Notes: generated from the sequence alone by a model not told the origin. DNA of 64,000 bases from the human T2T-CHM13v2.0 reference genome, Homo sapiens (GCF_009914755.1 NC_060926.1), one strand, 5' to 3'; shown: positions 45,523 to 53,960, counted from the first letter of the stretch. Program-made: numbers and translations.

Positions 45523-45573
45523 TTAATCAGCTACGAGGTTGTGACTCAGAGTAGGGAATGGCTCAAAGACGTC
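45523..45573 (-). pseudogene. Paralogue last exon: DVFEPFPTLSHNLVAD*, open
   Basis: 51 nt, acceptor ttcttcccattttag; stop at the same position as RESP18 ...NPVAD*. Confidence 0.9.
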
Positions 45574-47762
45574 CTAAAATGGGAAGAAACAAGATTTTCA
45601 GTTAATGCACTCAGGCAGTGGTTGCCACTCCCCTCCCTCTCCCCTTCCCCCACCAAGTGCAGAACCAATCTCAATAGCAGTCTCAAGTCCCTTCCCTTGT
45701 TCCCCATCTCTAATCCCGTCTCCTTCCCAGGATTTTCCAAGAGACACATTAGGGGTTTCTCAGGTTGCCTGAGCCTGAGGCATAGCAGCTCCTTGTTTGC
45801 ATACTTGACAGAACCATGGCAACCAGTCCCCATCATGGGGTCAGTCACAAGACTAATGATGTGGCCCAGCAGACAATCCAGGCAAAGGAGCCCTGCTGCC
45901 ATGGTGATGGGGGGCGGGGACCACCAGTTTCCTTGAAGGGCTGAGGGGCTGGAGCACCTCTGAGATACAGGTTGCCCTAATGGAGCCCATCTAGAAGTTT
46001 CCCAGATCCACTGCCACGATCATAGTCCCAGGTCCCAGGATCCCACCTGGACAACCTGGTTGCCCCAAACAGGTCTACCTGTTTCCACTCTTGTCCATTT
46101 CAAAATCCATTTTCCAACAGCATCAGTGTGTCTTTATAAAATGCTTATCATATTGTCCTACTCTCTTCCTTAAAAATCCTCCAATGCCTTCCCACTACAC
46201 TTTGAATAACACCCGACCCCCTGTCTATGGACTATAAGCTCCAAGTAGTCATGGGCCTATTTTCCAAGCTCATCTGCTGTCACAGGACTGTGTCTGTTCC
46301 CCCAACAAGCCCTGGAATCTCATCTAACAGCAGACGTATTTGAAAGCCTCTTTGCCTTGGAGACTCTTCCTCCAGATCTCCCCCGGGCTGCCTCCTTGTC
46401 ATTTAGGTCTAAGTTTAAATGTCACCTCCTGAGGCCCTACTTAGCCTAAGGTGTGTGAAACAACCCAACCTTTACTGGGGTCGCTGAGAGGAAGGGTAGG
46501 GGCTGTGCAGGGGGACGGCTGGGAGTCAGGATACAGGGGCTAGTCCTGGCTCCACACTTGTCCAGGCTGGACCTGAGCTTCTTATCTATAAAGATGGCTG
46601 GAGGTACAAGACGGGTAGTTTTCTATTTGAGCTCCAAAGGGCTCAGTGGTCCCAAGGAGATGCCTGAGAGCCTTGCCCAGGTGACTTAGTCAACACCACA
46701 GAGATAAGCAAGGGGGTTGGAGGGCTGATGTGAGAGACTCTGGGCCCTCCTCTCTAACTCAGGGAGAGAAGTGCCCCCCACACGTACATACACATGCACA
46801 TATATGTGTATACAGCATATGTATATGTAAGGGTGGGTAAGGTTAGGATTGGGGTCATGGCACACTTGGAATTCTCAGAAAAACAGCCCATATGTTTTTG
46901 TTGGGGGCGGGGTTGTGTTTTTTGTTTTTTGAGACAGGGTCTCACTCTGTCACCCAGGCTGGAGTGCAGTGGTGCAATCATAGCTCACAATAACCTTGAA
47001 CTCTTGAGTTCAAGCTAATCTTCTTGCCTTAGCCTCCTGAGTAGCTATGACTACAGGTGTGTGCCACCACACTTTTAAATTTTTGTAGAGACAGGGATCT
47101 TGTTATGTCACCCAGGCTGGTCTCGAACTCCCGGCCCTGAGTGATCCTCCCAATGTGCTGGGATTACAGGCATATGAACCACCACGACCAACCCACAGAG
47201 AGCCTATATGTTTTTTAAAAACATTGGAAAACCTCTGAAGCAGATTTCTGCAGACCCTTCAATTTCTGTGCACATGATTGATTGTACAGGACCAAGCCAT
47301 CGGAAGCCCCAGTCCCTGCATCCTGAGTTGCGGCAATCTACGAAAGGGAGACTCTGAGAGACAGAGAAAGTGGGGGCGCCCTCCAGTGGGGAAATGAAGA
47401 ATTTTCCTTCCATCCAGAACTGCTGACTGGCCTTTATTACATTGCCTCTAATTCTCACAGCAGCCAGGGAGGATGGCCATTATGACCACTCCACCGATGT
47501 GGAAGGAGGGCTTGTAGAGCTTCAGTAAGGTCATGACTGGGAAGCAGCAGTGCCAGGACTGGCCTGGGTCTGTCTGTGTGGAAAGCTGTGTTCCTTCCCA
47601 TCCATCAGGCCCATGCTTCCAGAAGATTCTCCATGAGGCTCTGCCCTCAGTGAAGCCCTGTCAGTCCTCATGCTGCCAATGTCAATCCCCTCCATCACTC
47701 TGCCTCCCTCTTGAAATAGCCCTTGCTGGGCTCAGGCTTCCTGAACAAGGCCAGGCCCTTAC

Positions 47763-47864
47763 CTGGAGCAGGGCCTTGGTGTGGCTGGTCACCTCTTGGT
47801 TCAGGACCTCTGAAACCGCTTCAGATTTAAAGCATTGCTCCCTGCTCACCCTGGTCATGGGGCT
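47763..47864 (-). pseudogene. Paralogue exon 5: SPMTRVSREQCFKSEAVSEVLNQEVTSHTKALLQ, open
   Basis: 102 nt, phase 0-0; acceptor cccatcag, donor gtaagg; aligns with RESP18 [25 protein letters not shown]. Confidence 0.9.
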
Positions 47865-51950: not shown

Positions 51951-52859
51951 TAACTGGCCAGGCATGGTGGCTCATGCCTGTAATCCCAGCATTTTGGGAG
52001 GCCGAGGCGGGCAGATCACCTGAGGTCAGGAGTTTGAGACCAGCCTGATCAACATGGAGAAACCCTGTCTCTTACTAAAAATACAAAATTAGCCGGGCAT
52101 GGTGGTGCATGCCTGTAATCCCAGCTACTCCGGAAGCTGAGACAGGAGAATCGCTTGAACCTGGGAGGTGGAGGTTGCAGTGAGCTGAGATCGCGCCATT
52201 GCGCTCCAGTTTGGGTAACAAGAGCGAAACTCTGTCTCAAACAAACAAACAAACAGACAAAGAACGACAAAAAAACACTAATAACTTTAACAAAATGGAA
52301 GCACAGCGTTCCCCAAACTTTAGTTATTTGAGAACCACCAACATGATTTTTGACTTATCTTTGTACCATTGTGCTATTACTGGCTTACTCTTCAAGTTGA
52401 TGATTCATGCTTTTTATTTATGTGAAATTATTTTAAATTTATTATTTATTTAGAGACAGGGTCTTACTCTGTCTCCCAGGCTGGAGTGCAGTGGTGCAAT
52501 CTTGGCTCACTGCAACCTCCGCTTCCCAGGTTCAAGCAATTCTCCTTCCTCAGCCACTCGAGCAACTGGGATTACAGGTGCGCACCACCAAGCCCAGCTA
52601 ATTTTTGTATTTTTAGTACAGATGGGATTTCACCGCGTTGGCCAGGCTGGTCTCTAACTCCTGACCTCAAGTGATCCACCCGCCTTGGTCTCCCAAAGTG
52701 CTGTGATTACAGCTGTGAGCCACCGCGCCCAGCCAAGTGAAATTATTTTAAAGGGCAACTTTGCTACTGTAAATGGAAAAAACCGTGTTTCTTGGCGTAA
52801 GTAGAAGCTAATTATAAAATATAAAGACAGACTCCAAAGAAAAAGAAGATATGTGTAGA

Positions 52860-53960
52860 GAGACCCCAGCACCCTACCCGTGAGGAGGGACTTCAGGACT
52901 GAGGCAGTAGTCCCAGGACTGATAAGTAAAGAGCGACCTTGGGCGCCCCCCCGCCGCTGTCATCAGCGCTGACGCCCTGGACCCACACAGCGGCGGGGTT
53001 TGGTTTGACGTGGCTCCCAAAGGCGAGGGCGGAGCTGGGGAAGGTGAGAGCACCCAGGCATCCGCACAGGCGTGACCCTCTGCCCACCAGGCACCCTGCC
53101 CACACAGCGCGCCGCAGGAAGCCCTCCGCATTGGTGTCCAAGCTCGAGCACCAGGTGGAGGAACCCGTGGCCATCGGGTGTGGGGTGTGCAGGGTGCGGA
53201 GAAGGCTAGGATTCCTCCCAATCCTCTGCTGCGCCCTCCCCCAGCCGCCTCCCCAGGTTGAGGGGAGGCCCCGGCCCAGGACTGGGCTCTTCCCGAGGTG
53301 GGGACTGGATGCCCGCGCTCCGGACTCCTGCCGGAGATGCCAACCCCCCAGCGCTGGGCACCTTGCCTTGACCCCTCAGCGCGTCTCACATGGCCCGGAT
53401 CTCGGTCCCTTGGGCACTCCCTCTTGCCCAACTCCGAATTGGAGTTCTTGTAGTTCTAGTTTCCACCCCGTCTTCCGACGTTTAAGACCCCGCTTCCAAG
53501 ACGCCCTCTGGCTTTCTCTTCCCATCCCGCACACTTCCCTAGCTTCTGAGCTGTGTGCACCCACCAACCCGCAGCCCTCCCTCAGGATCGCCCCTGCCCT
53601 TCCCCCAGGTTTCCTCCTGACGGTGGGGACTAATGGCGTCCCAGCCCCCCGGGCGGCTGCTCAGCAGCAGGAAGCAGAGAATCAGAGGCACCCCCGCTGG
53701 GCCCCGAGCCCCATGCGCGCGCAGGGGCCCCCGCATCTTGTTGGGCGCGCGCTGCCCCGCCTGCACCGCAGCGACCGCGGCCAGAGCCAGGCCAGGCGGC
53801 TCTGCGCGTCCCTCTCTCCGCAGCGCGGCCAGTCGGAGGCCGGCTGCAGCAAGGTCCCCAACCCCGGCTCTCCCGTGTCTTGGCGTCAGAGTCCTGCTTT
53901 TAAGAGTGGGGTGTTGCCTGAATATGGTCGACCCCTATCTAGAATCCCAACCCCCTACCC
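52860..53960. promoter_or_regulatory. CpG island at the paralogue 5' end, with decayed RE1 (52953-52973) and CRE half-site (53884-53888)
   Basis: Dense CpG/GC content similar to the PTPRN and RESP18 5' ends. Confidence 0.75.
53622..53736 (-). pseudogene. Paralogue exon 1: MRGPLRAHGARGPAGVPLILCFLLLSSRPGGWDAISPH, intact
   Basis: AAGATGCGG start context identical to PTPRN; 115 nt as in PTPRN; donor gtcaggaggaaac identical; LLLSSRPGG conserved. Confidence 0.92.

What the first reader, a model, noticed from the sequence alone, without database searches (positions are those of the whole stretch)
45523..53736. The 'pseudogene' can still encode an uninterrupted 131-aa secreted RESP18-like protein by skipping its damaged exons
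All lesions fall in exon 2 (TGA), exon 3 (TAG plus -1 frameshift) and the mini-exon. Exon 1 ends in phase 1 and exon 4 starts in phase 1. Exon 1 (115) + exon 4 (128) + exon 5 (102) + last exon (51) = 396 nt, with no internal stop: [135 protein letters not shown]18 itself has lost its exon-2 homologue, so skipping has precedent in this family. Four open exons could also just reflect recent pseudogenisation.
Basis: partly seen in the sequence, partly recalled or inferred. Interest (0 to 1): 0.85.

Follow-up and report, generated by a model that had tools for sequence, protein, structure and literature searches.

The report
Human relic of third RESP18 gene
A broken human copy of a little-studied third RESP18-type gene could on paper still give a short secreted protein if its damaged exons were skipped, but the evidence at hand says it is most likely a dead gene now transcribed as non-coding RNA.

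Summary
All four exons have AG/GT borders.

New here: the locus is the human orthologue of a third RESP18-family gene. Carnivores carry an intact 124-aa ORF.

Against production in humans:
- The only RefSeq transcript starts in intron 2, contains exon 3, uses another exon-4 donor and skips exon 5.
- Exon 3 and the mini-exon keep strong splice sites.
- The exon-1 donor has lost its -1 G.
- The open exons evolve about as fast as neutral DNA.
- No primate protein model exists among the 92 hits.

For it: all four lesions lie in skippable exons (nominal p about 0.01-0.03, post hoc), and a CpG island persists at exon 1.

Verdict: a unitary pseudogene and lncRNA. That the short protein is still made and functional gets about 10%.

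The parts
53400..54000 (-). CpG island and putative ancestral promoter around exon 1
   Evidence: GC 0.67 and CpG o/e 0.66 for 53500-54000, against 0.28 for the whole window and 0.76 for the PTPRN promoter. 53788-53604 and 53870-53810 align to PTPRN exon 1 and its upstream region at 74%.
53622..53736 (-). Exon 1 coding part (115 nt), open. ATG at 53736-53734. Encodes the signal-peptide-like N-terminus. Donor is ACC|GTCAGG.
   Evidence: It is 58% identical to PTPRN exon 1. The hydrophobic core GVPLILCFLLL has a KD mean of 2.82, against 2.55 for PTPRN. The donor has lost the -1 G present in PTPRN and RESP18.
50046..50096 (-). Exon 2 relic (51 nt, the Cys-rich motif exon). In-frame TGA and a dead donor (GTGCAT).
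   Evidence: 14 of 16 residues are identical to the cat orthologue P0025 apart from the stop (read by eye from the alignment).
49760..49863 (-). Exon 3 relic (104 nt). TAG in place of Trp and a 1-nt deletion. Acceptor and donor are intact.
   Evidence: The donor AAG|GTGAGA scores 10.7 bits and the pyrimidine tract is 0.89. This donor is the one used by RefSeq XR_007072848.1 (hub annotation).
49760..49919 (-). First exon of lncRNA LOC107985835 (XR_007072848.1). It starts 56 nt upstream of the exon-3 acceptor.
   Evidence: Hub annotation. The transcript has no AUG-initiated ORF in the RESP18 frame.
48251..48378 (-). Exon 4 (128 nt), open. It is the homologue of the PTPRN exon-4 disordered 'condensing' segment. 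The lncRNA uses an alternative donor at 48246.
   Evidence: Pfam PF14948 hit at 42.5 bits, profile positions 36-76 of 103.
47976..48007 (-). Mini-exon relic (32 nt). Flanked by ttttctag and gtgagt. TAA in the homologous frame, and the length shifts the frame.
   Evidence: It is the homologue of the 42-45-nt mini-exon present in most mammalian RESP18 proteins.
47763..47864 (-). Exon 5 (102 nt), open. It carries the 12-nt extension typical of the psi-like clade.
   Evidence: The only two matches in the human genome are this exon and RESP18 exon 4.
45423..45573 (-). Last exon. The coding part is 45573-45523 (16 codons plus TAA) in the ancestral RESP18 frame. ATTAAA lies at about 45439-45434.
   Evidence: The same frame and stop position occur in mammalian RESP18 proteins that end ...NLVAD.

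Best explanation
The stretch 45423-54000 (minus strand) is the human orthologue of a third member of the RESP18 / PTPRN-N-terminal family. The gene arose by tandem duplication before the boreoeutherian radiation.

Its status differs by lineage:
- In carnivores it is still predicted as an intact small protein: signal peptide, Cys-rich exon 2, exon 3 and exon 4, 124 aa in all.
- In the human lineage it has become a unitary pseudogene. Exon 2 has a stop and a dead donor, exon 3 has a stop and a frameshift, and the mini-exon is broken.

What is transcribed in humans today is a lncRNA. It starts in intron 2 and reuses the exon-3 donor, the exon-4 acceptor and the last-exon acceptor. The 131-aa exon-skipped ORF is a real property of the sequence. 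It is most likely a leftover: the remaining exons have simply not yet been hit. They may have been protected for some time by an exon-3-skipping isoform of the kind predicted in bat and seal. The ORF is not a product that is still made and selected.

Shown: the anatomy, the lesions, the orthology and the splice-site state. Inferred: the order and timing of decay, and the lack of translation.
For: Anatomy and lesions.

Orthology:
- The human exons group with 6 'RESP18-like / PTPRN-like N' proteins in one clade (support 100/98). This clade is separate from 12 RESP18 rows (96/91). The human copy sits next to the colugo copy, as the species tree predicts.
- Intact 124-aa ORFs occur in Mustela, Herpailurus and Halichoerus.

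Transcription and splicing:
- The only RefSeq transcript (hub annotation) begins at 49919, contains exon 3, uses donor 48246 rather than 48251, and skips exon 5. It has no AUG ORF in the RESP18 frame.
- Exon 3 (donor 10.7 bits, pyrimidine tract 0.89) and the mini-exon (ttttctag / gtgagt) keep strong sites.
- The exon-1 donor drops from 5.1 to 0.8 bits through -1 G>C (the matrix is recalled and approximate).

Rate tests:
- With PTPRN as outgroup, psi-specific changes in open exon 4 are 3 synonymous and 10 non-synonymous, with codon positions 4/5/4. RESP18-specific changes are 9 and 8.
- psi-specific substitutions per site: exon 3, 19 of 104; exons 1+4, 32 of 203; p = 0.63.
- psi-RESP18 DNA identity is 64% for exon 4 and 62% for the adjacent intron.
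- The human psi terminal branch is 0.27. Human RESP18 has 0.073 plus 0.082.
- Against an unnamed unspliced ORF (P0095), exon 4 is 22 of 37 identical and the flanking intron translation is 38 of 62.

Annotation: none of the 12 named psi-type proteins (10 species) among the 98 stored proteins is from a primate, although many primate RESP18 proteins were returned.
Against: Lesion placement is uneven.
- All 4 ORF-breaking lesions lie in the 201 nt of exons 2, 3 and the mini-exon, and none in the other 396 nt. The chance value is 0.013, or 0.023-0.03 without the mini-exon.
- If the whole gene had been neutral for a divergence of 0.10-0.15, exons 1, 4 and 5 would stay open with probability of only 0.002-0.10 (the indel rates are recalled).

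Other points:
- At carnivore-invariant sites, human exon 3 differs at 10 of 21 and exons 1, 2 and 4 at 16 of 66 (p = 0.056). This fits earlier abandonment of exon 3.
- Exon 1 keeps its ATG, an A at -3, an intact hydrophobic core and a CpG island (o/e 0.66).
- Orthologue models in bat and seal show that skipping exons 2 and/or 3 is used or predicted in this gene.
- No human RNA-seq, CAGE, Ribo-seq or mass-spectrometry data could be consulted, so absence of the isoform is not shown.
Confidence: 0.72

Rival explanations
1. The locus still makes a 131-aa secreted protein (signal peptide, then exon-4 disordered segment, exon 5 and the conserved C-terminal tail) by splicing exon 1 to exon 4 and skipping the mini-exon. 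This short isoform is under selection.
For: - The ORF is exact and all its splice sites are canonical.
- The stop codon lies in the last exon, so the message would escape NMD.
- All 4 lesions fall in skippable, frame-neutral exons (p about 0.013-0.03).
- The same exon 1-exon 4 junction is predicted in Rhinolophus sinicus isoform X2 (P0019). Exon-3 skipping is predicted in P0018 and P0054.
- The last exon is read in the ancestral RESP18 frame and keeps 10 of 16 residues of the conserved RESP18 tail (counted by eye).
- A CpG island is retained at exon 1.
- PTPRN exon 4 encodes the disordered segment reported to condense granule cargo (bioRxiv 10.1101/521351; abstract and passages read). An exon-4-containing product would therefore have a conceivable activity.
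Against: - The only RefSeq transcript supports none of the three junctions, and the locus is typed lncRNA (hub annotation).
- Exon 3 and the mini-exon have strong sites and would be included by default. The exon-1 donor is very weak, matching 4 of 9 consensus positions.
- Exon 4 on the human lineage looks neutral.
- Human exon 4 has lost the Cys kept in colugo, bat and most carnivore copies.
- No primate coding model was found.
Confidence: 0.1
2. The junctions occur only as low-level splicing noise. A few exon-1-initiated transcripts skip to exon 4, and a trace of peptide may even be translated, but it has no function and is not selected.
For: All the required sites are canonical and three of them (acceptors 48378 and 45573, and the exon-4 donor region) are demonstrably used (hub annotation). 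The CpG island suggests an unmethylated 5' end. The neutral-like evolution of exon 4 fits absence of selection.
Against: There is no direct evidence of any transcription from exon 1. The weak donor makes productive splicing from exon 1 inefficient.
Confidence: 0.15
3. The locus now works at the RNA or DNA level. The lncRNA, the retained CpG island and the RefSeq enhancer at 47251-47460 would regulate neighbouring neuroendocrine genes (RESP18, PTPRN, DNPEP). On this view the open exons are irrelevant.
For: The hub annotation lists a spliced lncRNA and an enhancer inside the locus. The CpG island is retained. The promoter-proximal region is 74% identical to that of PTPRN.
Against: No Rfam family hit in 44500-55000. 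No paper mentions LOC107985835. Nothing here tests regulatory activity. Old pseudogene promoters can keep CpGs for tens of millions of years (inference from recalled CpG decay rates).
Confidence: 0.12

Closest known systems
RESP18 (human, window 22175-27945; canonical 174-175-aa mammalian RESP18)
   Same: - Same strand and tandem position.
- Same exon phases, same exon-4 length (128 nt), same mini-exon, exon 5 and last exon with the stop at the same place.
- Shared 9-nt gap in exon 3 relative to PTPRN.
- Introns still alignable at 61-62%.
   Different: - It forms a separate clade.
- The psi-like gene keeps the Cys-rich exon 2, which RESP18 has reduced to an intronic relic.
- It has Trp instead of Cys before the exon-1 end and a 12-nt longer exon 5.
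- The human copy is broken in exons 2, 3 and the mini-exon.
PTPRN (ICA512/IA-2) RESP18 homology domain, exons 1-4
   Same: - Exon 1 has identical coding length (115 nt) with the ATG aligned.
- Exon 2 is 51 nt and carries the Cys-rich motif.
- Exon 1 and its upstream region are 74% identical.
- Exon 4 corresponds to the disordered condensing segment described for PTPRN (bioRxiv 10.1101/521351, passages read).
   Different: - No transmembrane or phosphatase part.
- Exon 4 is extended past the PTPRN donor.
- The downstream exons are RESP18-type.
[quoted passage not shown]
   Same: They are orthologues of the human locus (clade support 100/98). At carnivore-invariant sites of exons 1, 2 and 4 the human copy agrees at 50 of 66.
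   Different: They have intact 124-aa ORFs through exons 1-4, ending at a stop inside exon 4. They are automatic predictions only. No experimental study was found.
Rhinolophus sinicus 'RESP18-like' isoform X2 (P0019) and X4 (P0018); Leptonychotes weddellii P0054
   Same: X4 and P0054 skip exon 3 only.
   Different: The bat models keep the mini-exon. Their C-terminus runs through the usual stop into sequence that matches the human 3' UTR, so they may themselves be decaying. They are gene models and not verified proteins.

Membership tests
RESP18 domain family (Pfam PF14948) | Significant match to the family profile | tested here: met
   Exon 4 alone scores 42.5 bits (cut-off 25), E 8.2e-11, profile positions 36-76 of 103. 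The skip product would lack roughly the first 35 profile positions, which are encoded by exon 3.
RESP18 domain family (Pfam PF14948) | Shared exon-intron structure and synteny with PTPRN and RESP18 | tested here: met
   Same strand, tandem order, homologous splice sites and phases, and alignable introns.
RESP18 domain family (Pfam PF14948) | N-terminal signal peptide for entry into the secretory pathway | tested here: inconclusive
   An 11-residue hydrophobic core (KD mean 2.82) and a basic n-region are conserved with PTPRN. No signal-peptide predictor was available. Trp sits at the -3 position of the PTPRN-type cleavage site.
'RESP18-like / PTPRN-like N' orthologous group (third family member) | Groups with these proteins to the exclusion of RESP18 and PTPRN | tested here: met
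   7 of 7 psi-like rows form one clade with support 100/98. The human row is next to Galeopterus (88/70). The diagnostic Trp in exon 1 and the exon-5 extension are shared.
'RESP18-like / PTPRN-like N' orthologous group (third family member) | Open reading frame through all ancestral exons | tested here: not met
   TGA in exon 2, TAG plus a 1-nt deletion in exon 3, and a 32-nt mini-exon with TAA.
Unitary (non-processed) pseudogene | Introns retained at the ancestral position; disabled in this lineage; orthologue intact elsewhere | tested here: met
   Introns are present and homologous to RESP18 introns. The lesions are as listed above. Intact 124-aa ORFs occur in three carnivore families. The carnivore proteins are predictions only.
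   No RNA-seq, CAGE, Ribo-seq or MS data were available. The one RefSeq model has none of the junctions (hub annotation).
   Substitution tests point to neutrality but have low power (exon 4 S3/N10 against S9/N8, p = 0.14). Lesion placement points the other way (p about 0.013-0.03).

The most novel reading that the evidence does not exclude
Placental mammals have a third, unstudied RESP18-family gene. In carnivores it is a stand-alone secreted RESP18 homology domain with the Cys-rich motif. In the lineage leading to humans, exon 3 and later exon 2 were abandoned, and a short isoform took over: signal peptide plus the exon-4 disordered 'condensing' segment plus the conserved RESP18 tail. That isoform has been kept open by selection and is still made in some neuroendocrine cell type.
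Probability: 0.1. Interest if true: 0.7.

Novelty: new member of a known kind. Interest (0 to 1): 0.45.

Why it matters
RESP18 and the RESP18 homology domain of PTPRN/ICA512 are implicated in sorting and condensing cargo in dense-core secretory granules. PTPRN is also a major type 1 diabetes autoantigen.

A third family member has apparently not been discussed in print; five full-text searches found nothing. It appears intact in carnivores, variably spliced in bats and seals, and broken in humans. That gives a natural dissection of the domain: the Cys-rich part, the core, and the disordered exon-4 segment.

If the human short ORF were translated, it would be an unannotated secreted peptide from a locus now labelled lncRNA. 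If it is not, the locus is a clean example of a unitary pseudogene that decays exon by exon while being reused as a lncRNA.

Tried and rejected
1. My first reading held that the last exon is used off-frame, and that loss of the RESP18 85-nt exon plus a TGA in the 'RESP18 frame' were extra lesions. I rejected this after the orthologues came in.
2. The Cys-to-Trp change near the end of exon 1 and the 12-nt longer exon 5 first looked like human lesions. Both are shared by all psi-like orthologues.
3. Pairwise dN/dS between psi and RESP18 is too noisy to use: exon 4 gives omega 0.17 with saturated pS of 0.69, and exon 5 gives omega 1.01.
4. A search for PTPRN2 exons as a second outgroup returned only chance hits.
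5. P0001 and other unnamed short contigs are unspliced genomic ORFs across exon 4. I used them only as an intron-versus-exon control.
6. The Rfam scan of 44500-55000 gave 0 matches.
7. ATG-ORFs of 110 aa or more on both strands gave 5 ORFs, none with meaning beyond the unspliced exon-4 ORF.
8. Five literature searches (RESP18 + pseudogene; LOC107985835; RESP18-like and paralog terms; RESP18 + PTPRN + duplication + exon; RESP18 + isoform + exon + splice) found no description of the third gene. Supplements were not searched.
10. No structure or complex prediction was run.
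Full report
**What is there.**
The window is T2T-CHM13 chr2:219790001-219854000 (hub annotation; confirmed). A third RESP18/PTPRN-type locus lies on the minus strand, upstream of RESP18. tblastn with RESP18 and with the first three PTPRN exons finds its pieces in the expected order:
- exon 1, 53736-53622
- exon 2, about 50097-50041
- exon 3, about 49867-49778
- exon 4, 48378-48251
- exon 5, 47864-47775

DNA alignments fix the borders:
- Exon 1 has 115 coding nt, with the ATG aligned to the PTPRN ATG.
- Exon 2 is 50096-50046 (51 nt).
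- Exon 3 is 49863-49760 (104 nt).
- Exon 4 is 128 nt.
- A 32-nt mini-exon relic lies at 48007-47976.
- Exon 5 is 102 nt.
- The last exon is 45573-45423, with its stop at 45525-45523.

Introns are retained. They still align to RESP18 introns at 61-62% identity. This is therefore an old tandem duplicate and not a processed copy.

**The observation.**
Joining 53736-53622, 48378-48251, 47864-47763 and 45573-45523 gives 396 nt.

- TGA in exon 2.
- TAG and a 1-nt deletion in exon 3.
- A mini-exon whose length (32 nt) shifts the frame and whose homologous frame holds TAA.

RESP18 does carry a decayed relic of exon 2 in its first intron.

**What the locus is.**
A full HMMER scan with exon 4 and two word-indexed searches (92 proteins at E <= 0.001) returned mammalian proteins with source names. 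I applied simple diagnostics of my own: Trp before the end of exon 1, the Cys-rich exon 2, the exon-4 motif and the exon-5 extension.

19 of the 98 stored proteins are of the psi type:
- 12 are named proteins from 10 species: 7 carnivores, 2 Rhinolophus bats and the colugo Galeopterus.
- 6 are unnamed.
- 1 is the window's own ORF.
- None of the named ones is from a primate, although many primate RESP18 proteins were returned.

I built a maximum-likelihood tree of 20 rows chosen from these, with P0019 and P0014 trimmed to their psi-like parts. It gives:
- the 7 psi-like rows as one clade (support 100/98);
- the 12 RESP18 rows as another (96/91);
- the human exons next to Galeopterus (88/70).

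Mustela nigripes, Herpailurus yagouaroundi and Halichoerus grypus each have a 124-aa ORF through exons 1-4. All psi-like and RESP18 genes share a 9-nt gap in exon 3 relative to PTPRN, together with the mini-exon, exon 5 and the last exon. Exon 5 has only two matches in the human genome.

The human locus is thus the orthologue of a third family member, disabled in our lineage. That makes it a unitary pseudogene.

**A correction to my own first reading.**
The orthologues show the opposite. A human isoform (P0082) has the same ending.

**Evidence that the skipped product could be real.**
1. Precedent in orthologues.
   - Rhinolophus sinicus isoform X2 (P0019) joins exon 1 to exon 4.
   - Isoform X4 (P0018) and the Weddell seal model P0054 skip exon 3.
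   - The colugo model P0002 reads exon 2 off-frame and has no recognisable exon 3, yet has open exon 4, mini-exon and exon 5.
2. Lesion placement.
   - 4 of 4 ORF-breaking lesions fall in 201 of 597 coding nt (p = 0.013).
   - Without the mini-exon, 3 of 3 fall in 156 of 552 nt (p = 0.023).
   - A looser criterion gives up to 0.09.
   - These figures are post hoc and rest on few events.
3. At carnivore-invariant sites, the human copy differs at 10 of 21 in exon 3 and at 16 of 66 in exons 1, 2 and 4 (p = 0.056). This hints that exon 3 was abandoned first.
4. Exon 1 keeps its ATG, an A at -3, a hydrophobic core like that of PTPRN, and a CpG island (o/e 0.66 against a window mean of 0.28).
5. PTPRN exon 4 encodes most of the disordered segment reported to condense insulin and other cargo in vitro (bioRxiv 10.1101/521351; abstract and passages read). 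A signal peptide plus an exon-4 product would therefore not be meaningless.

**Evidence that humans do not make or maintain it.**
1. The only RefSeq transcript (XR_007072848.1, hub annotation) starts at 49919 in intron 2. It contains exon 3, uses donor 48246 and not 48251, and skips both the mini-exon and exon 5. None of the three required junctions is supported, and the transcript has no AUG ORF in the RESP18 frame.
2. Splice signals, scored with a recalled approximate donor matrix:
   - The exon-1 donor is ACC|GTCAGG. It scores 0.8 bits and matches 4 of 9 consensus positions. In PTPRN and RESP18 the site is ACG|GTCAGG at 5.1 bits.
   - The exon-2 donor is dead (-0.3 bits).
   - Exon 3 (10.7 bits, pyrimidine tract 0.89) and the mini-exon (ttttctag / gtgagt) look fully competent. 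Default splicing would include them and end the frame.
3. Rates.
   - With PTPRN as outgroup, psi-specific changes in exon 4 are 3 synonymous and 10 non-synonymous, spread 4/5/4 over codon positions. RESP18-specific changes are 9 and 8. Fisher p = 0.14 for exon 4 alone and 0.02 for exons 3+4 together.
   - psi-specific substitutions are no rarer in open exons 1+4 (32 of 203) than in broken exon 3 (19 of 104) (p = 0.63).
   - Exon 4 is 64% identical to RESP18, and the adjacent intron is 62%.
   - The human psi terminal branch is 0.27 changes per site. Human RESP18 since the same node has 0.073 + 0.082.
   - By my recalled estimate of about 0.13 neutral substitutions per site on the human lineage since the primate-colugo split, 0.27 is close to the neutral expectation. 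This is an inference, not a tool result.
   - Against the unnamed unspliced ORF P0095, exon 4 is 22 of 37 identical and the flanking intron translation is 38 of 62.
4. No primate coding model was found. Absence from this database is weak evidence.

**Most likely history (inferred).**
1. The gene arose by duplication before the boreoeutherian radiation, because the clade spans carnivores, bats, colugo and human.
2. It kept the PTPRN-type Cys-rich exon that RESP18 lost.
3. In several lineages exon 3 became dispensable or was skipped.
4. On the way to humans, exon 3 decayed, and exon 2 then took a CpG-type CGA>TGA hit and lost its donor. The mini-exon broke, as it also partly did in human RESP18.
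5. The rest has drifted at about the neutral rate without yet acquiring a stop.
6. Part of the locus is now expressed as a lncRNA.

The last is not exclusive of the others.

**Comparison with what is known.**
The family membership tests are met:
- the Pfam domain hit;
- shared exon structure;
- synteny;
- clade membership.

The test for an intact gene is not met. [quoted passage not shown] I found no paper that describes this gene or the human relic:
- Searches found nothing.
- I read passages only of PMC9900141, PMC6457024, PMC11802530 and PMC7498332.
- Supplements were not examined.

The novelty is therefore a new member of a known family and its human pseudogene, not a new kind of system.

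**Limits.**
- No expression, ribosome, peptide, population or primate genome data were available.
- All orthologue proteins are automatic models, some visibly flawed. P0002 reads through the exon-1 donor, P0014 is a chimera with RESP18, and P0019 runs through the usual stop.
- The neutral-rate, indel-ratio and splice-matrix values are recalled approximations.
- All statistical tests here rest on tens of sites or fewer.

Noticed in passing
window 27395-27397 (RESP18 exon 1, minus strand): The annotated CDS of the selected RESP18 transcript starts with ATA, at the position homologous to the ATG of PTPRN and of the pseudogene. The chimpanzee protein P0064 also has Ile there and starts 42 residues upstream. 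Chlorocebus and most other mammals have Met. In hominids, the working gene has lost the ancestral start and the pseudogene keeps it.
   Followed up: partly
window about 25837-25925 (RESP18 intron 1): A relic of the PTPRN-type Cys-rich exon 2 sits inside RESP18 intron 1. It is 72% identical to the pseudogene's exon 2 region, has an 8-nt deletion, and has a GTGAAT donor. A bat RESP18 model (P0074) appears to include a Cys-less version of it.
   Followed up: partly
window 53621-53603, 3969-3951, 27291-27273: The first 19 or so intronic bases after exon 1 (GTCAGGAGGAAAC.TGGGG) are nearly identical in PTPRN, RESP18 and the pseudogene, although the paralogues are otherwise 60-75% identical. The weak +3 C donor is conserved too. 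This may be a conserved splicing or regulatory element.
   Followed up: no
P0021, P0025, P0028 (carnivore orthologues): Three carnivore families share an ORF of exactly 124 aa. It stops inside exon 4, at the place where PTPRN has its exon-4 donor. The Lycaon model P0014 splices from that point to exon 5. Carnivores may use a PTPRN-like short exon 4.
   Followed up: no
P0014 (Lycaon pictus 'RESP18') and P0058 (Rhinolophus ferrumequinum 'RESP18'): These public models are chimeras that run from the RESP18-like gene into RESP18 proper. This suggests read-through transcription or mis-annotation between the tandem genes.
   Followed up: no
window 48203-48637 (minus strand): An unspliced ATG-ORF of 144 aa reads from the intron through exon 4 in the RESP18 frame.
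   Followed up: partly
window 50583-52777 and 46900-47190: Intron 1 of the pseudogene holds four Alu-like repeats that match repeats in PTPRN introns at 80-84%. Another lies between exon 5 and the last exon, next to the RefSeq enhancer at 47251-47460 (hub annotation).
   Followed up: no
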